A DNA stretch of 55,346 bases from a virus (taxonomy: Duplodnaviria; Heunggongvirae; Uroviricota; Caudoviricetes): positions 64,001 to 119,346 of IMG/VR virus record IMGVR_UViG_2645727811_000003. One strand, given 5' to 3'. The position numbers were made by a program, and so were the translations under genes. Of the stretch, positions 7,120 through 39,177 are shown in pieces. Position 1 is the stretch's first letter. Each line of letters opens with the position of its first letter. Below the pieces are notes generated by a model that worked only from the letters and a program-made list of their open reading frames with translations, did not search any database and was not told where the DNA came from.

Positions 7120-7916
7120 TAGACAAATTCAAGTTCAAAGAGAAGGAATATGTGGAAGCAATTATTGAAAACGGGTTTATCTCAAAAAACCTCAATTATG
7201 AATTAAAGTTATTGGCTATGTATTATAAAGAATTAGGGCATAAGCCTAAAAAACGAGAAGAACTCCTTTATGATTTCTGTGAAAAAAACATAGAGAATTT
7301 TAGCCGGGTGCTATATTACAAAAAAATTAATTCAGTGCTCAATCATGCAAGAAAAAAAGAAAATATTTTAATCAATATAGATGAAATTGATATAACAGAG
7401 AATGAACTTCGATTTGTTGATCGTTTAGATATCAATCATCAACAAAAAAAGCTCTGCTTTACCCTTCTCGCCTTAGCAAAATTATATTCAACAGTTCACT
7501 ACATAAAACATGGTGAACATACGACAGAGCACTATTATGGTGGAAACAACAAAAGATACAAAGAACTTATAGATGCTTCTCATACTTCGCTAACTGCCAA
7601 CAAGCTGCATCAAAACATTGGAGAGTTGTCCACGAAAGACATAATTGAGATTCGAAATAAAGGATTCATTAAATTAAGTTTTATCTATGATATTGAACCC
7701 GGTGGAGAAACGGCTATTAAAATAAGATCGTTTGACAGTATCGGTCTCTATTACGATCTACACACTGGTCAAAAGAAAGTTAAATCATGCGTTAATTGCC
7801 AAACTCCATTTAGATTTAAAAGTAACAAATCTAAATACTGCCTACCTTGTGCAGCCGCAATAGCAAAAGAAAAAACAAGGACAAGAGTAAGAAAGCATCG
7901 AAATGTAACGCTTTAG
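7116..7916 (+). CDS. Hypothetical protein with C-terminal CxxC…CxxC zinc finger, translationally coupled to the RNAP
   Basis: ATG at 7116 overlaps the RNAP stop (ATGA), AAAGGTG RBS; ends CVNCQTPF…KYCLPC plus a basic helix. Confidence 0.85.
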   Translation: MIDKFKFKEKEYVEAIIENGFISKNLNYELKLLAMYYKELGHKPKKREELLYDFCEKNIENFSRVLYYKKINSVLNHARKKENILINIDEIDITENELRFVDRLDINHQQKKLCFTLLALAKLYSTVHYIKHGEHTTEHYYGGNNKRYKELIDASHTSLTANKLHQNIGELSTKDIIEIRNKGFIKLSFIYDIEPGGETAIKIRSFDSIGLYYDLHTGQKKVKSCVNCQTPFRFKSNKSKYCLPCAAAIAKEKTRTRVRKHRNVTL

Positions 7917-8021
7917 AAAAACGCTAAAACCCTTGGTATATAAGCGTTTTTGAACCATACATAAATTTTTATATTATGGTAGGAAACACAAATTCAAACT
8001 TAAATTTAGGAGGAAATAAGA

Positions 8022-8297
8022 ATGAATAAAAAAGAACTAATTGGCGCAGTTGCAGAGGCTACAGGAAAAACGAAGAAAGATGTGGAATTGGTTGTTGACT
8101 CAACATTTGATGTAATCACATCTGCTCTAAAAGATGGTGAAAAAGTTAAAGTGCACGGTTTTGGCAGTTTCGAAGTGCGAGAGCGTGCTGCACGCAAGGG
8201 GCGTAACATTCAAACGGGTGAAGAAATCACTATTCCAGCGTCTAAAGTAGCAAAGTTCAAGCCTGCAAAAACATTAAAAGATGTTGTAAATAACTAA
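8022..8297 (+). CDS. yonN: HU family DNA-binding protein
   Basis: MNKKELI…[32 protein letters not shown] signature. Confidence 0.96.
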
Positions 8298-8365
8298 TTA
8301 AAAGTAGTGGTTAGGAATGGATGGGTAAGCTCCATCCCCCACTCCTTATTAAAAGGAGTGAAGAA

Positions 8366-9316
8366 ATGCTAATTACAGAACAAGAAATATATGAAAAATT
8401 AAAACCCTACTCTCATGAACCTGTAGTTTTACAATGTGATTATTGCAGAAAAAAATTCACAAGACGCAAGGCAAATCATCTTGGAATCAAACGAAAAAGT
8501 TCTTTAAAAAAAGATGCCTGTAAATCTTGCGTCAAAATTAAAAATGCAGAAGAGTGCCTTGTTGATTGGAAATGTAAAAATACTCAAAGACTGATTAATT
8601 TTATGCTACTTAATAAATCAACTAAATTATCAGGTGTTTATGCACTAAGAAATATCCACGAAAACAAATCATACATAGGGTCTTCTAAAAATATAATAGA
8701 CAGGATTAAATCTCATTTAATTGAGATTGAGAATGAAACGCATCATTGTAAACCTTTGATAGAATGCGGCTCAGAAAACATTGAGGTTATCATACTTGAA
8801 CACGATTTAGATGAAGAATATCTAACTGATAAAGAATACATTTACATTAAATTATTCCACACTGGGAACCCCAAGTTCGGGTACAACAAAATGCAAGCTA
8901 AAAAAAATTCTCCACGAAGAAAAAAATATAAAGATATTGGATACAGACTTAAACGATCCAATCTAACCATTCAAGAAGTTGAATGTATAAAAAAAGCTTT
9001 ATATGAGGGCGTGAGAATCAAGACATTAGCTGAGCAGTTGGGCATTAATTACGCAACCATACATAGCATTAAGAGTTGTTCAACATGGGAAAATGTTTTA
9101 CCTCATCTAAATAAAAAGCTAAAAAATATGAAGTATTTAGGTATTAGTAGAGGAAGTAAAAACTCTTGTAGCAAATTAAATGAACAGCAGGTAAAAGAGA
9201 TAAAACATAAAATTAAAAGTAATGTGCCCATTGTTTCAATAGCTAAACAATATGAAGTTAGCTCCACTCTAATCGGACATATTAAAAGAGGTAAACTTTG
9301 GTCACATGTTTCTTGA
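8366..9316 (+). CDS. Free-standing GIY-YIG homing endonuclease-like protein
   Basis: GVYALRN..ENKSYIGSS…R..H motif; N-terminal Cys cluster; two C-terminal HTH-like repeats; AAGGAG RBS supports ATG 8366 rather than 8321. Confidence 0.85.
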   Translation: MLITEQEIYEKLKPYSHEPVVLQCDYCRKKFTRRKANHLGIKRKSSLKKDACKSCVKIKNAEECLVDWKCKNTQRLINFMLLNKSTKLSGVYALRNIHENKSYIGSSKNIIDRIKSHLIEIENETHHCKPLIECGSENIEVIILEHDLDEEYLTDKEYIYIKLFHTGNPKFGYNKMQAKKNSPRRKKYKDIGYRLKRSNLTIQEVECIKKALYEGVRIKTLAEQLGINYATIHSIKSCSTWENVLPHLNKKLKNMKYLGISRGSKNSCSKLNEQQVKEIKHKIKSNVPIVSIAKQYEVSSTLIGHIKRGKLWSHVS

Positions 9317-28843: not shown

Positions 28844-29845
28844 ATGGCGAAAGAAATAAAACAGAATATGATACGCCCCCGTGCAAAGAAGCTGCCTGAT
28901 GTTACTGATGAGATGTGGGTGCAGGTTGATGAGGAGCATAGAAATTTAACAGAAGAATTCTTGGATGCTCACTCATTCCGTGACAAAACGAGAAAGCAGT
29001 ATGCCTCTTCCCTTCGTCAATTCTTCTGGTGGGTGCACGATTCTCTAAATGGAAAGAAACTACACGAAATCACAAAACGCGACTTTATTAAATATCAAAG
29101 TTTTTTAAAAAACAGAGGCATGTCTTCCAGTGGTATCGCACTAAAAAAAGCTGGTGTTTCTTCTTTAAATAACTATATTGAAAACGTCGTGGCTGAAGAT
29201 GATGACAATTATAAAACATTCAGGAACTTTACCCGCGGCCTCCCTGCTATTCCTAAGACAATCACCTATGAAAAAGTAAAAATTACATATGAAGATTATC
29301 AAACAATGATGAAAGCACTTGAAGAAGATGAAAACTATTTAGGGATGGCCTGGCTTGCAACTGCTTTTAATGTAGGAGCTAGAAGAGCTGAAATCATTCA
29401 GTTTAAGACAGAAATCTTAGATTACCCTATCCCTGAAGGCCAGCAATATGTGTTATCGCATAAAGTATTTGGCAAAGGCAGTGGTGAAGGCAAGGTACTG
29501 GAATACATGATCAATACAGAAGCTCTAAAATATTTAAAGCTGTGGCATGAAAAACGCGGGTACGATCATGAATACCTCTTTACCACTACTTACGGTGGAC
29601 AACCAAAGCAAATGTCAGAAACATGGGCTGATTATTTTTGCTCCGATGTTTTGTCAGACATTCTTGGCCGCAGAATCAACCCTCACCTTTTTAAAGCCTC
29701 TTGTATCACCTACTTACTCGAAGTCAAGAAAATCAAGATTGAACTTGTTAGCAAATACATTGCTCAACACGAAGATGTCTCCACTACAATCAAACACTAT
29801 GATCTTCGCGATTTTAAAGAAGAGAAGAATCAAATATTTATGTAA
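28844..29845 (+). CDS. yomM: Tyrosine recombinase/integrase family protein
   Basis: SAM-like N-domain; catalytic R (GARRAE), HLFK in place of HxxR, QH…TTIKHY with Tyr nucleophile; GGTGGTG RBS supports ATG 28844. Confidence 0.88.
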   Translation: MAKEIKQNMIRPRAKKLPDVTDEMWVQVDEEHRNLTEEFLDAHSFRDKTRKQYASSLRQFFWWVHDSLNGKKLHEITKRDFIKYQSFLKNRGMSSSGIALKKAGVSSLNNYIENVVAEDDDNYKTFRNFTRGLPAIPKTITYEKVKITYEDYQTMMKALEEDENYLGMAWLATAFNVGARRAEIIQFKTEILDYPIPEGQQYVLSHKVFGKGSGEGKVLEYMINTEALKYLKLWHEKRGYDHEYLFTTTYGGQPKQMSETWADYFCSDVLSDILGRRINPHLFKASCITYLLEVKKIKIELVSKYIAQHEDVSTTIKHYDLRDFKEEKNQIFM

Positions 29846-29975
29846 AATCACTCTTTTATTCAAAATCAAGATCCCTTCCCTAAAGGGGTTTTGCTTTTGT
29901 GTGAAATTGAACTCTCTATTTTTCTTTTCCCCAGGTTTGATACATGGTATAATTTTCATAAAGGAGATGAGGGCT

Positions 29976-30146
29976 ATGGCAACTGATATGAGGGTTAAAC
30001 CAGTTGTGAGTGGAAAAGACGCAGAAAGATTCTTAGAAAGAGTCAAAAGAAATAACCAAAGAATCGAAGCTAGAAGAGCGAAAAGAAAAGCGATGATGAA
30101 TAGGGTATCAAATGGGAAACAAGAAAATCGACTTGTCAAAAATTAA
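29976..30146 (+). CDS. Small antitoxin-like protein (56 aa)
   Basis: AAGGAG RBS, extended -10 TGGTATAAT; MATDMRVKPVVSGKDAERFL; overlaps the GNAT gene. Confidence 0.72.
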   Translation: MATDMRVKPVVSGKDAERFLERVKRNNQRIEARRAKRKAMMNRVSNGKQENRLVKN

Positions 30147-30666
30147 GGTTCGCCTTATACAAGTAACAGATCATCAAATTATCCAAAATTTCAAATGCGG
30201 AAATTCCACCATAGAAAATTATTTAAAGCAAGATGCCTACTATGACACAATAGATTCTTTTTCGAGCACAAGCTTAGTCTTTTACAAAGAAGATGAAAAA
30301 GAAGACTTAGTAGGCTTTTTTACGTTAAAGAACGAACCTCTAAGAATTAGCATTCCTTCTGATGAGTTGTACCATAACAGCAGTTTAGAAATTGCCAGAA
30401 TAGCGGTAGATGAAAAGCATCAAGAGCATGGTTTTGGGACAGTAATGATAAATACGATTAAAACTCTAGCCCAAACAACGAATCAACGTTTTGTGACTCT
30501 TGATGCTTTAATTGAAAGATATGACTGGTATGTAAAACGAGGCTTTGAAGCTTTCATTGAAAATGAGGCAAAAAGGAGCAATAAAGATGGTTTAGTTTAT
30601 ATGTACTCTGACTTGCTTGATGAAAAGGCTATTAATGCATATCTAGAGGATGAGCAAATTGTCTAG
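30112..30666 (+). CDS. GNAT acetyltransferase, TacT/AtaT-like toxin candidate
   Basis: FKCGN..IENYL, IARIAVDEKHQEHGFG (acetyl-CoA motif), TLDAL, WYVKRGF. Confidence 0.85.
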   Translation: MGNKKIDLSKIKVRLIQVTDHQIIQNFKCGNSTIENYLKQDAYYDTIDSFSSTSLVFYKEDEKEDLVGFFTLKNEPLRISIPSDELYHNSSLEIARIAVDEKHQEHGFGTVMINTIKTLAQTTNQRFVTLDALIERYDWYVKRGFEAFIENEAKRSNKDGLVYMYSDLLDEKAINAYLEDEQIV

Positions 30667-30712
30667 TCATGTTTTTTCTTACCTCGCATAGACTACAGTG
30701 AGGTGATAAAAG

Positions 30713-30838
30713 ATGTGCACAAGCAATCGAAAATCAATTGTCACGGGTAAAGATGCAAAAAAATTTTTGGACAAAGCATTAAAAAAACAAAGATTAGCAG
30801 AAAATAGAAGAAAAAAAAGAAGGCAATCCAAAGACTAA
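30713..30838 (+). CDS. 41-aa paralog of the antitoxin-like protein (not in ORF track)
   Basis: GAGGTG RBS; MCTSNRKSIVTGKDAKKFLDKALKKQR… shares V.GKDA..FL with 29976-30146. Confidence 0.65.
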   Translation: MCTSNRKSIVTGKDAKKFLDKALKKQRLAENRRKKRRQSKD

Positions 30839-30921
30839 AGTGTTTAGTAGGCTTTGTCTTCCCTCTTCCTTCCAACCGAACTAAAGAACTACACTCCCCC
30901 ACTTTTCAGCGAGAGGATTTC

Positions 30922-31536
30922 TTATTTTTCTTGTTCAGAAGGCTTCATTATGAGTGATCCTGCTGCAATGGCTGTGGCATATGTTTCAACAAACTCCTGA
31001 AAGTTGATTCCAAGCACTGCTTCTCCTCCCCATTGAACATATATGCCTATTAACACAAAAAAGTGAATAAAGTGAAATACATAATATTTTGTATTTGGAT
31101 TAAGGGTATTTGCCTTTTTAACACTACTATTTATCTGTTCAGCAGTTATATTTTCATTTTCAAAGTCCTGAGCCTGAATAAATTCATCAGCTTCTTGAAT
31201 ATATTCTTCATTTTCAAGATCATTCAGATCATCAACTGCTATTTCATCTATGAAAGATAAGTTGAGTTTTTGTATATCAAGATTGCGAAAACTCATTTTG
31301 TTTAGGTTTTCTTGAATTCGTTGAACCGAGCTTATATGAGAAGTCAATAAAGAAGATATTTCTATTGGTTTATTGATAAGATGAGTCGGATATTTCTCTG
31401 AGATTAAGCTTAACAGCTTTTGAGATGGGTAACTTTGTTTAAGAACCATCTGTTGTAAGTTTTGATATTTCGCTATTTCTTTTTGAAGATGCTGAACAGG
31501 ACTTGCTATATTTGGTATTGACGTATTCGATTTCAT
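30922..31536 (-). CDS. Hypothetical protein with C-terminal membrane helices
   Basis: 204 aa, AAGGGGG RBS, hydrophobic C-terminus. Confidence 0.75.
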   Translation of the reverse strand: MKSNTSIPNIASPVQHLQKEIAKYQNLQQMVLKQSYPSQKLLSLISEKYPTHLINKPIEISSLLTSHISSVQRIQENLNKMSFRNLDIQKLNLSFIDEIAVDDLNDLENEEYIQEADEFIQAQDFENENITAEQINSSVKKANTLNPNTKYYVFHFIHFFVLIGIYVQWGGEAVLGINFQEFVETYATAIAAGSLIMKPSEQEK

Positions 31537-31625
31537 AATTGTCCCCCTTTATTTTAATAATTAAAGTATAGCATATTGCAACCACGAACAGGAACAAGCG
31601 TTCTCTTTTGTTGAATCATCTCCTC

Positions 31626-31654
31626 TTTAAAATTTTCCACATTTGCTCGATAAT
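31626..31654 (+). promoter_or_regulatory. SigA-type promoter, duplicated at 32186-32214
   Basis: TTTAAA-17 nt-GATAAT within a 46-nt block repeated with identical spacing to the GAGGTGA RBS. Confidence 0.6.
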
Positions 31655-31675
31655 AGGATCGAGGTGAATGATGGG

Positions 31676-32137
31676 ATGTTTAGATGGTGGATTAGGAAAA
31701 GGAATAAACTAAAAAAAGAACCTGAATATTTAGGAGAGGTATTGCTAACATGGCCTGATGAAGAAATACAGAAATACATTAGAGATTATTTTGGTTATAG
31801 TTCTAACAAAAACAAGAAAATTGAGTTACACCGAATTAGACGGCTTGATTTAGATACAATAATACTTGGCATCGCAAGGATGAAAGAAATCGAGGAGTCT
31901 TTCGACAATTCGAAGACGGTTCCCAGTTTCATAGCGGCAACTGTGTTTATGCTTACTCAAGTTTTCAATTTTTATACAGATGACGAAATGTATCGATTGT
32001 TCCTTATTCTGGTGTCTTACATTATTTTCTTCGTTTTTCTATTTGCTATTAAAAATGGTAGCGATCATCGATCAGGAGCAGCTCAATACAGGAGCTTGCT
32101 GGAACAGGTGAAGGCTGAAAAGGAGAAGACATCCTAA
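31676..32137 (+). CDS. Two-TM membrane protein (paralog 1)
   Basis: GAGGTG RBS supports ATG 31676; helical N-domain plus two TM helices. Confidence 0.78.
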   Translation: MFRWWIRKRNKLKKEPEYLGEVLLTWPDEEIQKYIRDYFGYSSNKNKKIELHRIRRLDLDTIILGIARMKEIEESFDNSKTVPSFIAATVFMLTQVFNFYTDDEMYRLFLILVSYIIFFVFLFAIKNGSDHRSGAAQYRSLLEQVKAEKEKTS

Positions 32138-32153
32138 ATGGGTGTCTTTTTTA
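32128..32153 (+). terminator. Rho-independent terminator
   Basis: AAGACATCC-taaat-GGGTGTCTTTTTT; related hairpins near 27881 and 32696. Confidence 0.8.
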
Positions 32154-32234
32154 TTTGGCATATATGGAGGTTTTCCCTCCCCCTCTTTAAAATTTTCCAT
32201 TTGTGTACGATAATCACCTTGAGGTGATTTGGAA

Positions 32235-32693
32235 ATGGATAGTGATGAATATTATAAAAAATATTTAGAAGAGAGTTTAATCAAGTTAAAAACTCGTGAC
32301 CTTATAGAGTTTATTAAAAGAGAATTTCCTGAAGAGGTCAACTATAACCATGAGATTCACCAAAAGAAAGTTGAAGCGTTGAAATCTCTATCAAAAACAG
32401 ACTTATCTGCGGCTATAGCCAGACTAGCTAGAATTCAACGAAAGTTTGATCATACTAAATTGTGGACTATTGGCGCGGTTTTTATTGGTACAGCTCTTGT
32501 TAATTTACAAATTTTATTTAAAGTTAACCTCACAAAAATTTCCGAGGAAAATTATATTAATTATTTAATGTATGGTATTACTGCCTTAACTGTGTGCTTT
32601 GTCTTATATAGGGCTATCAGAAAGGATAAGAAAATATCAGATACAGCAGCATATTTAAAGGATTTGATTGAACAAGTTAAATCAGATAAGTAA
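32235..32693 (+). CDS. Two-TM membrane protein (paralog 2)
   Basis: GAGGTG RBS; IAR..I..FD..K motif shared with paralog 1. Confidence 0.78.
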   Translation: MDSDEYYKKYLEESLIKLKTRDLIEFIKREFPEEVNYNHEIHQKKVEALKSLSKTDLSAAIARLARIQRKFDHTKLWTIGAVFIGTALVNLQILFKVNLTKISEENYINYLMYGITALTVCFVLYRAIRKDKKISDTAAYLKDLIEQVKSDK

Positions 32694-32858
32694 CAAAAGG
32701 CATCTCAATGGTGTCTTTTTATTTTGAATGCAGGTAAAAAACATTGCACCGGAAAAAGTCTGCTAAGATGGAACGACAAAAGCAGACCGCCCGGTCGAAT
32801 TTGACAAGATATTTGCTGATACAAAGCAATACAGATGATACTATAAAAAAGAAACAGA

Positions 32859-33599
32859 TTAATTCTTTTTTGGTGGTTTAATTTGTTGAGATTCGCAATA
32901 ATCATTTATATTAGTTACGATCTCTATAACCATGTTCAAATAAAATTCAAGAGTTTTAACTATAGGTTTACTACTACCTTCAAAGGAAAAGTATGAAGTG
33001 AATTCTCCTTCATACTGATTTATGTAAGGATGGTTATGTGGATTATCAGGATCAAAAGGAACATCATTCACTGTCAAAACCTGCCCTACTCCTTCAAACT
33101 TATTATTCAGCATAGTAATACCCTCTGGGAATGACAAATAATCCAATGTTCCAGAATAGAGCTTTTTGTTTCGTGTGAGTCTTACGTGTTTGGTTTCATT
33201 ACAATGTTTTTTAAAGTCAGTTAACCAGGATGAGCCGATTTCGAACTCTTGGGGCATCTTAAATACTTCATAAAGAAAATTATGGTCTTCCTTTAAGCCC
33301 ACAAAATGTTTATTAACCTGCTCTTCAAAAATTTTTTCTTTTTTATAGGCCGGAAAATATATTTTTCGTTTTATGTATTCAATATTGTCGTAAACTGCCG
33401 AGGCATTTTCAAGACAAAACACTTCAAAGATATAATATGCAGCGTAATCCAAAGAAGAGTTCAAAGCAGCCAAAAAATTTTTAATTTTAAAGGCTAAGGT
33501 ACGTTGCAAATCTTCAGAAGCTAGAGCCTTATGGTGTAATTTAGATATATCCTCTAAAGCCTGTTCTGCTTCATCAAGCAAATAGAGCGCATCCTGCAT
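32859..33599 (-). CDS. HEPN-like helical protein, candidate RNase/defence effector
   Basis: AAGGGGG RBS supports ATG 33599; KNFL.AL.SSLDY, IYFP and WL…CNETKH patterns recall HEPN-fold families. Confidence 0.6.
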   Translation of the reverse strand: MQDALYLLDEAEQALEDISKLHHKALASEDLQRTLAFKIKNFLAALNSSLDYAAYYIFEVFCLENASAVYDNIEYIKRKIYFPAYKKEKIFEEQVNKHFVGLKEDHNFLYEVFKMPQEFEIGSSWLTDFKKHCNETKHVRLTRNKKLYSGTLDYLSFPEGITMLNNKFEGVGQVLTVNDVPFDPDNPHNHPYINQYEGEFTSYFSFEGSSKPIVKTLEFYLNMVIEIVTNINDYCESQQIKPPKKN

Positions 33600-33660
33600 A
33601 GAATAAGTCCCCCTTTTTTCATGAACAAGAATAATATACCAAAGAATAGGTGAAAAGCCC

Positions 33661-33825
33661 ATGAAAAACTATTGTGAAGTTTTAGAAGTATTCGAAGAGG
33701 TTCTTGAAGAGTGGTTTTCAGCTGAATCGATTCTTATAAGCCAATGTGGTGATTGTACTGATGACCTTGAAAAGAGAAAAGAACTGTATAGGCAGCGTTT
33801 TGTTGAGACTTTGAGTGGGAATTGA
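33661..33825 (+). CDS. 54-aa acidic hypothetical protein (not in ORF track)
   Basis: AGGTG 9 nt upstream; MKNYCEVLEVFEEVLEEW…ETLSGN. Confidence 0.45.
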   Translation: MKNYCEVLEVFEEVLEEWFSAESILISQCGDCTDDLEKRKELYRQRFVETLSGN

Positions 33826-33838
33826 TGAACCTCTCCCC

Positions 33839-33859
33839 TTCCCTTATGCTCAAGATAAA
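33839..33859 (+). repeat. Direct repeat copy 1, TTCCCTTATGCTCAAGATAAA
   Basis: Recurs at 34438 and 35542. Confidence 0.85.
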
Positions 33860-33888
33860 TAAGAAGAGAATGATTCCACTCTCTTCAC

Positions 33889-34374
33889 TCAAACTTTTTC
33901 AACTTTTTCCAGATCAAGCCTAAATTGCTTAATTTCATTTTCCATAAGGTCAATGATATTCAAAAATTCAGTGCATACCTGTCGGTCATCAGTAATACCT
34001 GGGTGATCCAATGCAATATGTCTTAAATACAAGAAATCTTCTATGTTCTTGATCGCTTCAGCGACTTTATCTCCAAGCAGATGATAATTTTGATACAATA
34101 TAGGTTTTATTGAATCAAAAAAGATCCTGTCTTTAAAGTGACATGTTCCTTCCTCTGTATCAATGAATACAACATATTCTTTGTTTTGGATATTCAAAAT
34201 TTCATTATAAACGTTCATTCTTTTTAGCTTATATTCTCTTTTAGCCTTCATATTTTCCATTTTTGCTTGTTTTTTAATTTGGAAACTCTGAACAACGAGA
34301 GTCGAGAAAAAAGAAATGGCTCCTCCGACAACAGTACTAACCAAGATTGGTATAAATGATTGTACTTCTTCCAT
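33889..34374 (-). CDS. Hypothetical protein with N-terminal TM helix
   Basis: 161 aa, GGGG RBS, hydrophobic residues about 7-30. Confidence 0.78.
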   Translation of the reverse strand: MEEVQSFIPILVSTVVGGAISFFSTLVVQSFQIKKQAKMENMKAKREYKLKRMNVYNEILNIQNKEYVVFIDTEEGTCHFKDRIFFDSIKPILYQNYHLLGDKVAEAIKNIEDFLYLRHIALDHPGITDDRQVCTEFLNIIDLMENEIKQFRLDLEKVEKV

Positions 34375-34437
34375 AATAGACCCCCATTATTGTAATATGC
34401 AGTTAATTGTACCACGATTTGCTTCTATCAGTGTAAC

Positions 34438-34454
34438 TTCCCTTATGCTCAAGA
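34438..34454 (+). repeat. Direct repeat copy 2, TTCCCTTATGCTCAAGA
   Basis: 17/17 identity to copy 1. Confidence 0.85.
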
Positions 34455-34524
34455 ACATATTGCTATGCTGTGTTTATTCTTTCTCAGCGCACTATAAAGC
34501 TCCCTCACAGAGAGGGAGCCTAAA

Positions 34525-34797
34525 TTAGAGAGCTTTATTTAACTCATGTTTAATCCAAAGTTCGAAGTATTGAGTAGCCTCATCTTCACCTAAATCTTTA
34601 CTTGTTATCGAGAATATCTTACAACCGAAGGGAGCGATTTTTGAAAACTTCATAGGCGGCTCATCCATTGCATGATCCTGAAAGTTAAAATACACGTCCC
34701 AAACATCAACATCTAGTCTCTTTAATCCTACTGCTTCAAGATCTAATCCATTTTTATCGTAACTAATATGTAGATGTTGCGTTTCATCATAATTCAT
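34525..34797 (-). CDS. Probable immunity protein
   Basis: 90 aa acidic protein starting 15 nt after the toxin gene stop, with its own GGAGGG RBS. Confidence 0.7.
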   Translation of the reverse strand: MNYDETQHLHISYDKNGLDLEAVGLKRLDVDVWDVYFNFQDHAMDEPPMKFSKIAPFGCKIFSITSKDLGEDEATQYFELWIKHELNKAL

Positions 34798-34812
34798 TAG
34801 GAAACCCTCCCT

Positions 34813-35436
34813 TTAGAAAATGATATGATGCTTTTTCATGTTAGGCGGCACATGGTAATGAAGTTTATAGGGGCCTCCCGTCTTAACTGGATAATAATCT
34901 AATCTGAAAATTGGTTTTCCGGTAGATTTTAAACGAACTTGAATAATTCTGCCACCACCACCGGGGCCATCAATCTTGTATTTACTCGGCGCCTTTAAAG
35001 CTTTTTCAACATATGGTCTCGCGATTGCCCAGCCTTTTTTCATTCCAGACCTGCCAACTTTGCTAATTAAGACTCTTAAAGCTGTAGCAACAATTGGCAC
35101 CCACATCGGTTTTATTTCAGCGTCCTTAACTTCTTGTTCGGCAAGCACCTGTTCTAACTGCTGAAATACTGGGTCTTCTATTAAAAAATCAAACTCTTTT
35201 TCAAACTCTTCATTATCCAAACTTTGAATATCCGTTTTATTAATCGTTGAAATTGATGGTGTTTCATCAATGATGCTTTTTGGGAAAATCTCATTCAATG
35301 TATTAAGAGTTGAGTTGAAATCAATGCTTTCACCCTCTTTTCCCTCTTCAATTGCTTGAGATAATGGACTTAGAGCACTCATAACCAACACAAAGACCAA
35401 AAGTGAGACAATAGTTTTAATAAACTTTTTCGCCAT
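34813..35436 (-). CDS. Secreted pre-pro-toxin with basic, His-containing C-terminal domain
   Basis: Signal peptide (…LSQA), acidic pro-region, IKPMW boundary, amphipathic helix, then FRLDY…LHYH…HH domain. Confidence 0.72.
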   Translation of the reverse strand: MAKKFIKTIVSLLVFVLVMSALSPLSQAIEEGKEGESIDFNSTLNTLNEIFPKSIIDETPSISTINKTDIQSLDNEEFEKEFDFLIEDPVFQQLEQVLAEQEVKDAEIKPMWVPIVATALRVLISKVGRSGMKKGWAIARPYVEKALKAPSKYKIDGPGGGGRIIQVRLKSTGKPIFRLDYYPVKTGGPYKLHYHVPPNMKKHHIIF

Positions 35437-35541
35437 ATTTGACCTCCTAGTTAATTATTTTCATTCCAAATATATCAATATATGGTATGAAAATCAACAG
35501 TTGATTTTACTTTAAGTAGTCAAATATTACGTGGATGGTGT

Positions 35542-35562
35542 TTCCCTTCTGCTCAAGATAAA
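35542..35562 (+). repeat. Direct repeat copy 3, TTCCCTTCTGCTCAAGATAAA
   Basis: 20/21 identity to copy 1; just upstream of the yomJ -10 element. Confidence 0.85.
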
Positions 35563-35623
35563 CATTCCTGTAGATGAAAATTGTGGTATACTGTAGGCAT
35601 ATTGTTTGATGAGGTGGTTTGGT

Positions 35624-36262
35624 GTGTTTATCGCAATGTTAATTATTGCAGGGTTTATTGTTTTCTTTGGATATGCACTGTCTGAGGGTAAAAAGCAAGA
35701 AGAAAAACAAAAAGAGATTAAAAAAAGTGACCGAAAAAACCTTGATCAATATGATTTAGATTTTTCTCCGAACAAATCATATATAAACCCTGACGGAAAA
35801 ATGAAAATTGCCTTCAATTCAGAAAATGAGCTATTTAAAATATATAGAGTGTCCCCCAATGGGACGATTCATGAAGTTGCTATCCCCTTTGATAAAATTG
35901 TCGATTCAGAGATACTTATTGATGATACAACGGTTATGAAAGCCTCACGAGGTCAACAAGTAGCTGGAGCTTTAATTGGAGGTGCAATTGCTGGTGGAGT
36001 TGGAGCAATTATTGGTGGGAGTTCTCCAAATACCACAAGCTTAAACACTGTAAAAAGAATTCGTTTAAAGATCACAAATGAAGATTTTGAAAATCCAGTT
36101 TATTATATTGACTTCCTCCCTACCCGAGATAAATTAAACCGAAGAATTGATAAAGGCTGGAACAAAGAAGACTCTACAGTGTCTTATGCATTAAAGAAAG
36201 CTGAATATTGGCAAGGTGTTCTGGAATTGGCTATAAGAAAAACAAATCAAGTCGCTCATTAA
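35624..36262 (+). CDS. yomJ: YomJ-like membrane protein (putative immunity/exclusion)
   Basis: IPF…SEI, Gly zipper GALIGGAIAGGVGA, YIDFLPT and AEYW motifs as recalled for SPbeta YomJ; GAGGTG RBS favours GTG 35624. Confidence 0.8.
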   Translation: MFIAMLIIAGFIVFFGYALSEGKKQEEKQKEIKKSDRKNLDQYDLDFSPNKSYINPDGKMKIAFNSENELFKIYRVSPNGTIHEVAIPFDKIVDSEILIDDTTVMKASRGQQVAGALIGGAIAGGVGAIIGGSSPNTTSLNTVKRIRLKITNEDFENPVYYIDFLPTRDKLNRRIDKGWNKEDSTVSYALKKAEYWQGVLELAIRKTNQVAH

Positions 36263-36653: not shown

Positions 36654-36902
36654 ATGCTGAGCAAAAAAGTATATGGGACTATTATGCTTACAGTGTCGCG
36701 TCAAACAACGGCTTCTAGCAAATGTTTAGCAATACTTGATTCATACTATGCCATATCCGATGATCGAGTTGATTTGACTGAGTTGACTCTACTACACAAA
36801 AATGGAAAAGTTTTAGGGACGGTCAAAGTACATAATGTGAAAATTTCTTGGGATGGATTTAAAAAGGGAGAGAACATCATTGGCTCAAATATACACTCAT
36901 GA
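36654..36902 (+). CDS. Hypothetical protein
   Basis: GGGAG RBS supports ATG 36654; TTGACT…TAATAT promoter-like sequence upstream. Confidence 0.65.
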   Translation: MLSKKVYGTIMLTVSRQTTASSKCLAILDSYYAISDDRVDLTELTLLHKNGKVLGTVKVHNVKISWDGFKKGENIIGSNIHS

Positions 36903-39177
36903 ATTTGTGCGAGATTATTTCAAGAAACATGGATGTGAACTTATTTCAGAATTTAAAAACGTTAGGCAGATACTTTCTTACAGATGTGTTTGCGGAGAAA
37001 TAGGAACTACAAATTTTTATTCATTTAGAAACAGCCATCATAAAAAATGCAATAAATGTGTAAGAAAAAAAGCAAAGAAGCCGAATAAACTAGACTTTGA
37101 ATATGTGAAAAAATTTTTTAAAGAGAATAATTGTGAGCTCCTTGAATCCATGTATATTAATAGCTCTACTAAGATGGCTTATATCTGTTCGTGTGGGAAA
37201 AAAGATTATAAGACTTGGAATAAATTTAGAGCAGGACAAAGGTGTAAGGATTGTGCAATAAATCAGAGTGCTGAAAAACAGAGAGCAGATTCTTCATATG
37301 TTGAAAACTTTCTAAAAGAACATGGATTTTCAATAGCCGATGGGAAATATGTAAATACAAATTCAAAAATGTTGCTTATTTGCCAATGTGGAAAACCAAC
37401 TGAACGAACATGGAGTTCAGTTAAACAGAGTCCAAAATGCAACTGTTCAATTCATTACACAAAACCCTTAAAAAGAAAGTTTACAAAAGAGGATCTGATT
37501 AATTTTTATTGGAAATTAAAGAACGATCTTGGAAGATACCCTAGTTTAGAGGATTTAAAGAAAAATCCGTCTTCCCCTTCCCCATCTGTTTACGAACGAA
37601 AGTTTGGGGGATGGGTAAAGTTTTTAGAGAGTATTGGAGTAATGACTAGTGACAGATGGTATGTTGATGACATCGAAACCTTAAAGCGTATGTATGCTGA
37701 CTATTCTTATGAAGAAATAAACAATGCTCTTATTAAGAAAAGGAGTAAAAGCACCATACAGCATAAAGCCAATAGCCTTGGACTGAAAAGATCTTACAAG
37801 GCTAAATTTGGAAAGGAGAAATTCTCAAATGAGTATTTAATAACTTTTTTGAAGAATTTCTACGACAAATACAATCGAACCCCTGTTGCAAAAGATTTTG
37901 TGGGAAATGATTTAAACTATGATACTTTCACTAAACGTTTTGGCTCTTGGAATAATGCGCTAAAAAAAGCTGGTCTACCAATTAATAGAGAACGATCAAA
38001 AAATCTCTCTAATAATGAATTACTTAAAATGAAGGAAATGTATGAAGCAGGAGTTGATATGCAAGATATAGCAAAACACTTTAATTATACACATACTGCG
38101 CCTATTTATTATCATTTGAATAAGATGAATGTTAATCTAACACGTAATAATCGTTGGTCAGAAAAACAAATCCACTATTTGAAAGCTCACTATCCTAACG
38201 CAGAGTGGAAGGATTTACTTAAAAACCTTGCACCTTTTTCAAAAGAGAGTATTACTACAAAGGCTTATAAACTCGGCATAAAAAGAAACTCAAATTTTTA
38301 CACCGAAAAAGAAGAAAAGATTCTTCGAAAATTTTATGGAAAAGTGTCTTTTCATGAACTCCTTAAGATGTTGCCTAATAGAACGGAATCTTCTGTTGTT
38401 TCTAAAGTTAATCATATGGGTTTAAAAATTAGAGAATTTTGGAGCGAAGAAGATATTAACATGCTGAAAAAACATTATCAGACCTCTACTGATGAAGAAT
38501 TATTAAAAATGTTCAAAGATAGATCATGGTCTTCGATTCAAAGTATGGCAACAAAAAATTTGAATCTAAAGAGAACGAAGGAATATTACAAAAATAAAAA
38601 AGAAAAAATTAGAGATCATCTAATCAAAGAACTTATAGAGTACGCTCATGCTTTAGGAAGAACACCTACATCAGTAGAAGTTCAAAAGAACCGAAACCTA
38701 CAAGGAATTTCAACATATATTAGGTATTTTGATGGTTACAGAAATGCTTGTCTAAAAGCAGGTCTTGATCCTAATCAATCTATTTTTGGTAGGTCAATTC
38801 ACTGTATATCATTAAATGGGGATGTATGCCTTTCAAAAAAAGAGAAAGAAATAACCGACTTATTTATAAAAAATAACATAGCGTATGTAAAAGAGGTTCT
38901 TTATAAAGATATACTGGGCAAAAATAATATTCCAAATATAAAACTTGATTGGTTTGTTAACAACAGAGTCATTGTTGAGTATTTCGGAATGACAGATAAA
39001 GATTATTATAAAAAAAGAGCTAATTATAAAATAGAGTTTTGTAAGAAGTATGGCATTCCATTGATTCCGCTGTACCCTGATGATTTAACGAATAACTACA
39101 ACGGCTTAAAAGAAAAATTTAAAACTCATGGAATTAACTTTGGGAATGGAGATGAACAAAATGAAAAAATACGTTAA
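36880..39177 (+). CDS. Large free-standing endonuclease-like protein with repeated DNA-binding modules
   Basis: Three Y.N…C.CG zinc-ribbon repeats, three R.P…F/Y..FG.W…G homing-endonuclease-associated repeats, W(S/T)EE HTH-like repeats, C-terminal S..E…D…VEYFG PD-(D/E)XK-like domain; AAGGGAG RBS supports TTG 36880. Confidence 0.78.
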   Translation: MAQIYTHEFVRDYFKKHGCELISEFKNVRQILSYRCVCGEIGTTNFYSFRNSHHKKCNKCVRKKAKKPNKLDFEYVKKFFKENNCELLESMYINSSTKMAYICSCGKKDYKTWNKFRAGQRCKDCAINQSAEKQRADSSYVENFLKEHGFSIADGKYVNTNSKMLLICQCGKPTERTWSSVKQSPKCNCSIHYTKPLKRKFTKEDLINFYWKLKNDLGRYPSLEDLKKNPSSPSPSVYERKFGGWVKFLESIGVMTSDRWYVDDIETLKRMYADYSYEEINNALIKKRSKSTIQHKANSLGLKRSYKAKFGKEKFSNEYLITFLKNFYDKYNRTPVAKDFVGNDLNYDTFTKRFGSWNNALKKAGLPINRERSKNLSNNELLKMKEMYEAGVDMQDIAKHFNYTHTAPIYYHLNKMNVNLTRNNRWSEKQIHYLKAHYPNAEWKDLLKNLAPFSKESITTKAYKLGIKRNSNFYTEKEEKILRKFYGKVSFHELLKMLPNRTESSVVSKVNHMGLKIREFWSEEDINMLKKHYQTSTDEELLKMFKDRSWSSIQSMATKNLNLKRTKEYYKNKKEKIRDHLIKELIEYAHALGRTPTSVEVQKNRNLQGISTYIRYFDGYRNACLKAGLDPNQSIFGRSIHCISLNGDVCLSKKEKEITDLFIKNNIAYVKEVLYKDILGKNNIPNIKLDWFVNNRVIVEYFGMTDKDYYKKRANYKIEFCKKYGIPLIPLYPDDLTNNYNGLKEKFKTHGINFGNGDEQNEKIR

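What the first reader, a model, noticed from the sequence alone, without database searches (positions are those of the whole stretch)
28844..35623. Cassette array downstream of orphan tyrosine recombinase YomM, delimited by direct repeats (integron-like?)
Seen: TTCCCTT(A/C)TGCTCAAGA(TAAA) occurs at 33839, 34438 and 35542. The copies bracket two self-contained units: the 161-aa TM gene (578 bp between copies) and the toxin-immunity pair (1087 bp between copies). The last copy abuts the yomJ promoter. The roughly 5.7 kb between yomM and yomJ holds about 10 unrelated accessory genes in mixed orientation. Established: SPbeta integrates through the serine recombinase SprA, so YomM is not the prophage integrase and I know of no assigned substrate. 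Inference: repeated site-specific insertion at one site would regenerate such repeats, and YomM is the nearest candidate enzyme.
Basis: partly seen in the sequence, partly recalled or inferred. Interest (0 to 1): 0.7.

Follow-up and report, generated by a model that had tools for sequence, protein, structure and literature searches.

The report
Repeat-bounded accessory gene cassettes, SPbeta-like prophage
A short repeated sequence really does mark the joints where small self-contained accessory gene units have been gained, lost, swapped and re-ordered just upstream of the immunity gene of an SPbeta-like Bacillus prophage, but nothing ties this to the nearby YomM recombinase, and it looks more like the repeat-mediated gene shuffling already known from T4-type phages than like an integron.

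Summary
Observation confirmed and extended. The repeat R (TTCCCTTNTGCTCAAGA, mostly followed by TAAA) lies at 33839, 34438 and 35542. About 0.04 matches are expected by chance, and R occurs nowhere else in the 119-kb provirus.

In about 20 related proviruses of the B. licheniformis group, homology with the window breaks at R. Cassette c1 (161-aa membrane protein) and c2 (secreted toxin-like protein plus DUF3986 immunity) occur together, singly or not at all. Three further antisense cassettes (c3-c5) use the same joint. One close relative is about 99% identical up to R, only 84% across c1, and 97-98% again after R.

R is the upstream end of a strongly conserved island that runs to the yomJ ("immunity protein d") start codon.

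The integron/YomM reading is not supported:
- YomM is present in all SPbeta-like lineages, R in only one.
- R has no dyad symmetry and no fold.
- The duplicated length differs between cassettes (3 nt or fewer up to at least 45 nt).
- The cassettes carry their own promoters and terminators.
- R-c2-R persists in genomes without YomM.
- YomM has Lys at the second catalytic Arg.
- A different, dif-like palindrome overlaps its stop codon. Earlier notes of this scan reported that palindrome on other DNA.

Best reading: PeSL-like modular shuffling by homology-guided recombination.

The parts
28844..29845 (+). yomM homologue. A tyrosine-recombinase-fold protein with signature R..K..HxxK..H..Y and no assigned substrate.
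   Evidence: 84.6% aa identity to SPBc2 YomM. PHROG integrase E=9e-28. XerC model E=1e-12, far below its cut-off. Alignment with a host XerD shows Lys at the second catalytic Arg, invariant across the sampled family down to 58% identity.
29843..29858 (.). dif-like palindrome TAAAA-N6-TTTTA overlapping the yomM stop codon. Not part of the R array, but a rival candidate for the YomM site.
   Evidence: 27 copies in the provirus against 1 for the reversed control. The same address and centre TC(A/C)CTC recur in several lineages.
29867..29893 (+). Intrinsic terminator after yomM. It is the left edge of the variable interval: homology with close relatives ends at about 29907.
31622..31667 (+). Repeat D1, copy 1. 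Promoter (TTTAAA-17-GATAAT) plus RBS of a yomK-like gene. A second type of repeated joint in the interval.
32182..32227 (+). Repeat D1, copy 2. Promoter plus RBS of the paralogous yomK-like gene.
33661..33825 (+). g54, a small acidic ORF. It is the usual left anchor of the R array.
   Evidence: Conserved in most genomes of the lineage. Homologues come only from B. licheniformis, B. paralicheniformis and B. haynesii.
33839..33859 (+). R copy 1 (R plus TAAA), the joint between g54 and cassette c1.
33863..33886 (-). Terminator hairpin of c1. Its T-tract runs into the 3' part of R.
33889..34374 (-). Cassette c1 cargo: a 161-aa protein with an N-terminal membrane segment.
   Evidence: PHROG 37821, unknown function. 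Present in the window, L083 and L086.
34406..34414 (-). Predicted extended -10 (TGGTACAAT) of c1, 23 nt from R copy 2.
   Evidence: read from the sequence; inferred
34438..34454 (+). R copy 2, the joint between c1 and c2.
34500..34514 (-). Terminator hairpin of c2.
34525..34797 (-). c2 cargo: 90-aa DUF3986 protein, a presumed immunity protein.
   Evidence: Pfam PF13143, E=2.5e-36
34813..35436 (-). c2 cargo: 207-aa protein with a signal peptide, a presumed secreted toxin.
   Evidence: No family hit. Homologues paired with DUF3986-like genes occur in other Bacillaceae genomes without R.
35469..35497 (-). Predicted promoter of c2 (TTGATT-17-TATATT, with TG).
35542..35562 (+). R copy 3, the leftmost part of the yomJ regulatory island.
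35542..35626 (+). Conserved island: R, a spacer, the extended -10 TGTGGTATACT (35582-35592), the 5'UTR, the RBS GAGGTGG and the GTG start of yomJ.
   Evidence: 92-99% identical across the lineage although the DNA on both sides is unrelated or only 34-49% identical at protein level.
35624..36262 (+). yomJ homologue (SPbeta 'immunity protein d'). A membrane protein, hypervariable between phages.
   Evidence: The Pfam family PH_gly_zipper is recorded on its homologues in related loci.

Best explanation
The stretch between the small gene g54 and the immunity gene yomJ is a hyperplastic spot. It holds a variable array of antisense 'morons' (independent accessory gene units), each with its own terminator, cargo and promoter. 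R is a 17-33 nt intergenic box. Its native copy forms the upstream end of the conserved promoter/5'UTR island of yomJ, and further copies sit at the joints between units. Because R is often the only sequence shared between differently loaded phages, or between neighbouring joints in one phage, crossovers fall in it. Unequal crossovers add or remove a unit, double crossovers swap alleles, and R x R exchange within one genome deletes a unit or could release it as a circle. I think the enzyme is the general or phage recombination machinery working on short homology, as shown for the PeSL motifs of T4-type phages, and not a dedicated site-specific recombinase. What is shown: the repeats, the units, the coincidence of breakpoints with R, the discordant divergence of c1, the re-ordering, and the restriction of R to one lineage. 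What is inferred: the recombination pathway, and any role of R in transcription.
For: 1. R is real and confined to this spot. It is absent above control level from a host genome. Among GTDB species representatives, the only related sequence with an exact 21-nt R match is a B. glycinifermentans prophage; the two other hits show no similarity to the window.
2. Every combination occurs with a clean joint: c1+c2 (window), c1 only (L083, L086), c2 only (L087/L120) and neither (L085, L124, L130, L167-L174).
3. Five unrelated cargos use the joint, all antisense. They include the arrangements c5-R-c2, c5-R-c4 and, in a remnant, c2-R-c1, the reverse of the window's order.
4. Window against L083: identity is about 99% over 32801-33860, 84% across c1, and 97-98% from the island onward. 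The switch falls within R plus 9 nt.
5. The duplicated segment differs by cassette: 21 nt for c1, 17 to at least 45 nt for c2, about 14 nt not including the 5' part of R for c4, an 11-nt 3' part for c5, and 3 nt or fewer for c3. A junction of R with the inside of c1 in G049 rests on 3-4 nt of microhomology. This fits homology- or microhomology-guided events.
6. A second repeat in the same interval (D1) is plainly a promoter plus RBS of paralogous genes, and it also coincides with breakpoints.
7. The core yomJ promoter is conserved in all SPbeta-like lineages. R is a lineage-specific upstream extension of it.
8. There is a precedent: PeSL motifs mediate modular shuffling and form mini-circles in T4-type phages (PMC2839356).
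Against: 17-33 nt is short for RecA-type recombination, and I did not look for a short-homology recombinase in this phage. Uniform orientation of all R copies and all cassettes, one R per unit and variable order are equally what a site-specific system would give. How the first R-flanked unit arose is not explained. No function of R in transcription is shown, and one phage (L067) has a yomJ island that lacks the 5' 13 nt of R.
Confidence: 0.55

Rival explanations
1. R is the core site of a dedicated site-specific recombination system, a phage 'mini-integron'. Circular cassettes carrying one R integrate at the R upstream of yomJ and are excised by R x R recombination. The catalyst would be YomM or another phage or host recombinase.
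For: R sits at every joint in a single orientation. Cassettes are independently present or absent, and their order can differ. An allele swap has its switch point at R. All junction types share the short segment AAGATAAA, which could be a common crossover region. YomM keeps five of the six catalytic residues and is under strong purifying selection. In SPbeta, integration is assigned to SprA rather than YomM (PMC10516654).
Against: YomM is found in all lineages, including a Geobacillus phage and staphylococcal SPbeta-like phages, while R occurs in only one sublineage. Other lineages vary at the same hotspot without flanking repeats. R has no inverted arms and no ssDNA fold (z between -0.13 and +1.3). 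c3 and c5 lack a full left R, and c4 lacks a full right R. R-c2-R and g54-c5-R persist in chromosomes with no YomM homologue. yomM lies 4 kb from the first R with variable genes between. It has HxxK in place of HxxR. A dif-like palindrome, not R, overlaps its stop codon.
Confidence: 0.17
2. R is first of all a cis-acting regulatory element: an operator or activator site for the divergent, lysogenically expressed promoters, or a C-rich, G-poor Rho-loading tract that stops + strand read-through into antisense units. On this view each unit keeps a copy because it needs one, and the coincidence with breakpoints is only a by-product of its conservation.
For: The native copy lies at about -57 to -41 of the yomJ promoter, which has an extended -10 but no recognisable -35. 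In c1-only phages R lies midway between the divergent c1 and yomJ -10 elements, 23 and 24 nt away. The island containing R is 92-99% conserved where neighbouring DNA is not. With its C-rich leader, R directly follows stop codons of + strand genes. A C-rich tract lies upstream of the yomJ promoter in most other lineages too.
Against: No regulator gene co-occurs with R: the neighbouring HTH gene is found only in the window and L083. R is absent elsewhere in the phage and in the host. R is not symmetric. Copy 1 has no nearby promoter. L067 has a yomJ promoter without most of R. Upstream copies diverge at about the same rate as their surroundings. The SPBRE/MrpR operator sites of SPbeta map to other promoters (PMC10516654).
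Confidence: 0.2
3. The three copies are inert scars of one old duplication, and all differences between genomes are deletions from an ancestor that carried every cassette.
For: c1 and c2 diverge between distant lineages by about as much as the neighbouring yomM DNA (84-93%). Deletion between short direct repeats is common.
Against: c1 is discordant: 84% identity in a 97-99% background. Five different cargos occur in different orders, and c2 has at least four different left neighbours. Together these require gains and exchanges, not only losses.
Confidence: 0.05

Closest known systems
PeSL (promoter-early stem-loop) regulatory cassettes of T4-type phages (Arbiol et al. 2010, PMC2839356; Comeau et al. 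2014, PMC4122927)
   Same: A short repeated intergenic motif lies between non-essential genes in a hyperplastic region. Insertions, deletions and replacements between related phages break at the motif. Exchange between neighbouring copies can delete a gene or release it as a circle.
   Different: PeSLs are themselves a promoter plus a terminator, are about 50 nt or longer, and occur many times per genome in virulent myoviruses. R is a 17-33 nt non-palindromic box lying between one unit's terminator and the next unit's promoter. It is confined to one spot of a temperate Bacillus siphovirus. Mini-circles have not been looked for.
Integrons (IntI, attI, attC cassettes)
   Same: An ordered array of independently gained and lost cassettes, with one repeated site per cassette in one orientation, near a tyrosine recombinase gene.
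   Different: There is no IntI-type integrase and no attI next to the enzyme. The sites are identical in sequence and unstructured, rather than variable in sequence with a conserved hairpin.
pdif / Xer modules of Acinetobacter plasmids
   Same: Accessory gene modules bounded by short recombination sites, which allows modular exchange.
   Different: pdif sites are 11-6-11 imperfect palindromes in alternating orientation. R has no arms and is always direct. The dif-like palindromes of this provirus (TAAAA-N6-TTTTA) are a different element and do not bracket c1 or c2.
Morons and mosaic boundary sequences of lambdoid phages
   Same: Independent promoter-gene-terminator units lie between conserved phage genes and are often expressed from the prophage. 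Mosaic joints fall at short conserved sequences.
   Different: Here several morons are stacked in tandem at one joint, and the same box is regenerated between them.
SPBRE, the operator of the MrpR (YopR) master repressor of SPbeta (PMC10516654)
   Same: A short repeated intergenic element of an SPbeta-type phage. Its binding protein has a tyrosine-recombinase fold without recombinase activity, which is a precedent for a non-catalytic YomM.
   Different: SPBRE sites lie at about ten early-region promoters (yorE, aimR, yonT and others), not between yomM and yomJ. R occurs only at this one spot.

Membership tests
Integron | IntI-type integrase encoded next to attI | tested here: not met
   YomM scores 37 bits on the XerA/integron-integrase model, whose cut-off is 220. 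The gene lies 4 kb from the first R with about 8 variable genes between.
Integron | attC sites: variable sequence with a conserved imperfect hairpin of 57-141 nt | tested here: not met
   R copies are nearly identical in sequence. R with 20 nt on each side does not fold as ssDNA on either strand (z between -0.13 and +1.3).
Integron | Promoterless cassettes co-oriented behind a common promoter Pc | tested here: not met
   c1 and c2 have predicted promoters and terminators of their own and lie antisense to the flanking operon. These are predictions only.
Integron | Cassettes independently present or absent and re-ordered between relatives, breaking at the site | tested here: met
Tyrosine recombinase (catalytically competent) | Catalytic residues R-K-H-R-H/W-Y | tested here: inconclusive
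   Alignment with a host XerD shows R193, the GKG lysine, H293, H321 and Y331 present (Tyr shifted by one residue). The second Arg is Lys296, invariant in homologues down to 58% identity. From memory, Lys at this position lowers but need not abolish activity in type IB topoisomerases. I did not check this.
Xer/dif-type (pdif) module | Site made of two inverted binding arms around a 6-8 nt spacer | tested here: not met
   Reading R directly, the best arms (TTCCCTT / AAGATAA) match at 5 of 7 positions only when the following TAA is included, and the 17-mer alone has no dyad. The provirus has true 5-6-5 palindromes elsewhere.
PeSL-like regulatory cassette shuffling | Repeated intergenic motif at the boundaries of indels and replacements between close relatives | tested here: met
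PeSL-like regulatory cassette shuffling | The motif is itself a functional promoter plus terminator | tested here: not met
   R contains no sigma-A promoter match. It only adjoins a terminator tail on one side and a promoter region on the other.
PeSL-like regulatory cassette shuffling | Circular products of exchange between neighbouring motifs | not testable with these tools
   This needs PCR or long reads from lysogens and lysates.
Moron | Autonomous promoter-gene-terminator unit between conserved phage genes, absent from close relatives | tested here: met
   Units c1 and c2. They are absent from L085, L124 and L167-L174. Expression was not tested.
SPBRE / MrpR operator | Dispersed copies at early-region promoters bound by the master repressor | tested here: not met
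   R occurs only three times, all at this spot. The published SPBRE targets do not include yomJ-yomM (PMC10516654). The SPBRE sequence itself was not available to compare.

The most novel reading that the evidence does not exclude
R, or its shared segment AAGATAAA, is a genuine recombinase target. On this reading SPbeta-like phages of the B. licheniformis group carry a small, enzyme-driven cassette platform that stacks and swaps toxin, immunity and exclusion genes in front of the superinfection-immunity gene. The enzyme could be the conserved but unassigned YomM recombinase, with its unusual HxxK active site, acting on R as well as on the dif-like palindromes scattered through the genome.
Probability: 0.12. 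Interest if true: 0.75.

Novelty: new member of a known kind. Interest (0 to 1): 0.45.

Why it matters
It gives a clean natural example, in a model phage family, of how prophages assemble and exchange lysogenic-conversion genes (a toxin-immunity pair, membrane proteins, a possible defence gene) at one address next to the superinfection-immunity gene. The full series of empty, single, double and re-ordered states makes the mechanism directly testable. It also removes R as a likely substrate for YomM, whose function is still unknown. Instead it points to the palindrome at the yomM stop codon as the site to test.

Tried and rejected
1. SPBRE/MrpR operator. The published binding sites are at other promoters, and R is not dispersed.
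2. A promoter for the phage RNA polymerase YonO. Only one start site, upstream of yonK, is known, and no consensus exists to compare with.
3. A host regulatory motif. R is no more frequent than the reversed control in a host genome. The genome and metagenome scans gave only a prophage and, as far as checked, chance hits.
4. An attC-like fold. None was found.
5. Palindromes bracketing the cassettes. The TAAAA-N6-TTTTA family is real, but only the copy at the yomM stop lies in the interval.
6. A whole-island duplication beside c2. This is supported only for L087/L120 (62% identity over about 60 nt, against 59% or less in 200 shuffles) and is not significant for the window copy. I therefore do not claim that R is selectively preserved within a decayed duplicate.
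7. An apparent breakpoint inside c1 at 34080. This was an artefact of locus ends. The real switch is at R.
8. A profile search of solved structures with the YomM alignment found nothing at E 0.01 or better.
9. Literature searches for yomM found nothing usable.
10. No c1 homologues were found with this query in 91 Bacillaceae species genomes.
11. The near-identity search of the phage collection returned only Geobacillus virus E3, because close records are withheld.
12. No structure prediction of YomM was run. The sequence alignment was judged sufficient for the active-site question.

Full report
**1. The observation**

The 17-mer TTCCCTTMTGCTCAAGA matches exactly at 33839, 34438 and 35542 on the + strand. 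Shuffled sequence gives 0.04 matches on average. Copies 1 and 3 continue with TAAA. The window is the last 55 kb of a 119-kb IMG/VR provirus. Even with 3 mismatches the whole record has only these three copies plus two control-level hits.

Between the copies lie two complete minus-strand units:
- c1: terminator 33863-33886, a 161-aa membrane protein gene at 33889-34374, and an extended -10 at 34406-34414.
- c2: terminator at about 34500-34514, a DUF3986 gene at 34525-34797, a 207-aa signal-peptide protein at 34813-35436, and a promoter at 35469-35497.

Copy 3 ends 24 nt before the extended -10 motif TGTGGTATACT of the next + strand gene.

The recombinase at 28844-29845 is 84.6% identical to SPBc2 YomM. 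SPBc2 has the order yomM, yomL (antisense), yomK, yomJ ("immunity protein d"), yomI.

**2. What R belongs to**

I anchored all SPbeta-like loci on the yomJ -10 element. The core promoter is conserved in every lineage: TGnTATAAT, then GTAGG, an RBS and the start codon. Upstream of about -38 the B. subtilis clades differ from one another.

In one sublineage the conserved block extends further upstream by GATAAAC and R. This gives an island from 35542 to the GTG start at 35624. The island is 92-99% identical between phages, although their yomJ proteins are only 34-49% identical and their upstream DNA is unrelated. R is thus the left end of the yomJ promoter/5'UTR island of this sublineage.

The hosts of the sublineage are B. 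licheniformis, B. paralicheniformis, B. haynesii and B. glycinifermentans. R is not a host motif. It is not the SPBRE operator either, because the published SPBRE sites lie at other promoters (PMC10516654).

**3.

They do. Architectures found among 48 yomM-containing viral loci and the loci recovered through g54 homologues:

| Architecture | Genomes |
|---|---|
| g54-R-c1-R-c2-R-P | window |
| g54-R-c1-R-P | L083 |
| other left context-R'-c1-R-P | L086 |
| g54-...-R-c2-R'-P | L087, L120 |
| g54-c5-R-c2-R-P | L179 |
| g54-c5-R-c4-P | L173 |
| g54-R-c4-P | L067 |
| g54-c3-R-P | L084, L109, L123, L180-L182 |
| g54-R-P ("empty") | L085, L124, L130, L167-L174 |

P is the yomJ promoter. All five cargos are antisense, with the terminator on the left and the promoter on the right:
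- c1: membrane protein
- c2: toxin-like protein plus DUF3986
- c3: a 311-aa protein with a weak DUF4062 match
- c4: a 285-346-aa protein
- c5: a 220-aa protein

In L083 the segment 34455-35541 is missing precisely, leaving one hybrid R. In the empty genomes everything between copies 1 and 3 is missing.

The most telling comparison is window against L083. Identity is about 99% from 32801 to 33860, 84% across c1, and 97-98% from the island onward. The change falls within R plus 9 nt. This is an allelic replacement of one cassette, not a deletion.

Two chromosomes without any YomM homologue carry remnants:
- G029 has R'-c2-R-P next to glnA.
- G049 has R-c2-R followed by an internal piece of c1, lying between tRNA fragments. 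That is the order c2-c1, the reverse of the window's.

**4. Why not an integron run by YomM**

(a) Distribution. YomM is present in all SPbeta-like phages examined, in Geobacillus virus E3 and in staphylococcal SPbeta-like phages. R is present in one sublineage only. In the B. subtilis clades the same interval varies in content, with no sequence of the yomJ upstream region repeated inside it.

(b) Site anatomy. R has no inverted arms and does not fold as single-stranded DNA.

(c) The duplicated segment is not constant:

| Cassette | Duplicated segment |
|---|---|
| c1 | 21 nt |
| c2 | 17 nt (window), at least 45 nt (L087) |
| c4 | about 14 nt (AAGATAAACATTYC), without the 5' part of R |
| c5 | only CTCAAAGATAAA on its left |
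| c3 | 3 nt or fewer, plus TAAA |

The junction of R with the inside of c1 in G049 rests on 3-4 nt of microhomology.

(d) The cassettes are complete transcription units.

(e) A second repeat in the interval, D1 (31622-31667 and 32182-32227), is plainly the promoter and RBS of two paralogous yomK-like genes. It also coincides with breakpoints. Repeated regulatory DNA in general acts as a joint here.

(f) YomM aligns with a host XerD over the whole catalytic domain. It keeps R, K, H, H and Y but has Lys at the second Arg, and this is invariant in homologues down to 58% identity.

(g) I followed a lead from earlier notes of this scan. The provirus carries 27 copies of TAAAA-N6-TTTTA, against 1 for the reversed control. 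One copy overlaps the yomM stop codon (29843-29858). The same address and centre recur in several lineages. If YomM has a DNA site, this dif-like palindrome is the better candidate. It does not bracket c1 or c2.

**5. What remains open**

Uniform orientation, one R per unit and variable order fit a site-specific system as well as homology-guided exchange. In addition, all junction types share AAGATAAA. I therefore keep 17% on a dedicated recombinase (about half of that on YomM itself).

I keep 20% on R being mainly a regulatory element. Two observations favour this: its position at -57 to -41 of a promoter without a -35, and the C-rich, G-poor tract that directly follows stop codons. Against it, no regulator co-occurs with R, and one phage has a yomJ island lacking most of R.

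I could not show that R is preserved better than its surroundings.

**6. Comparison and verdict**

The closest described system is the PeSL motif of T4-type phages. There, repeated regulatory cassettes in hyperplastic regions mediate insertion, deletion and replacement of non-essential genes and form mini-circles (PMC2839356). The present case is the same kind of process in a temperate Bacillus siphovirus. It uses a shorter box that is not itself a promoter-terminator, and it is concentrated at one address next to the immunity gene.

The finding is of moderate interest and is directly testable by circle PCR and by YomM and recA genetics.

Noticed in passing
window 29843-29858; also 13855, 25672, 48747; provirus G000 4-57 kb (outside the window): The palindrome TAAAA-N6-TTTTA occurs 27 times in the provirus, against 1 for the reversed control, mostly in the early region. 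One copy overlaps the yomM stop codon. Related phages keep address-specific 6-nt centres, for example TC(A/C)CTC at the yomM stop and TAAAATACAAGTTTTA about 1-3.5 kb upstream.
   Followed up: partly
window 35624-36262 and island 35542-35626: The yomJ (immunity protein d) coding sequence is hypervariable: 34-49% protein identity even between close phages. Its promoter, 5'UTR and start codon are 92-99% conserved, so yomJ alleles appear to be swapped right after the start codon.
   Followed up: partly
L117 14290-14480, L118 13790-13960, L119 12770-12860, L087 15510-15530: Two to three copies of a perfect operator-like palindrome (core TCATTTTAAATGA) sit in a 200-300 nt non-coding insert just upstream of the yomJ promoter in another lineage. 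The insert is flanked by a 13-14 nt direct repeat, TCCCCTGCCCT(G/T)TT. The palindrome is absent from the window.
   Followed up: partly
L159 (G049:C1:468000-486000), reverse-complement positions 7300-9100: A decayed c2 unit (toxin gene broken, immunity gene intact) with both R copies and a 63-nt piece of c1 lies between two tRNA-like 3' fragments in a chromosome with no YomM homologue. This looks like a remnant retained for its immunity gene.
   Followed up: partly
L173 3958-4318: An orphan DUF3986 immunity gene, preceded by R and the c2-type left junction but without the toxin gene, lies to the left of g54 in a B. haynesii prophage.
   Followed up: no
L175-L178 (B. haynesii chromosomes): The segment g54-c5-R is fixed beside PTS and mannose-6-phosphate isomerase genes in at least 8 assemblies, with no phage genes in the 5 kb fetched on either side. 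This is another domesticated fragment of the array.
   Followed up: no
upstream of the yomJ promoter in most lineages: A C-rich, G-poor tract (CTCCCC followed by T's) lies at the left edge of the conserved promoter block in several otherwise unrelated upstream contexts, directly after the stop codon of the preceding + strand gene. Its function is unknown. It could be a Rho-loading site.
   Followed up: no
window 36853-39177: A 774-aa protein with three HNH_repeat (homing-endonuclease-associated) domains lies between yomJ and the tape-measure gene. It is present only in some relatives (L083, L085/L130, L173).
   Followed up: no
L167, L168, L174 (B. licheniformis prophages): IS605/IS200-type genes (OrfB/TnpB, and in L174 also a Y1 transposase) are inserted between the yomJ region and the tape-measure gene.
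   Followed up: no
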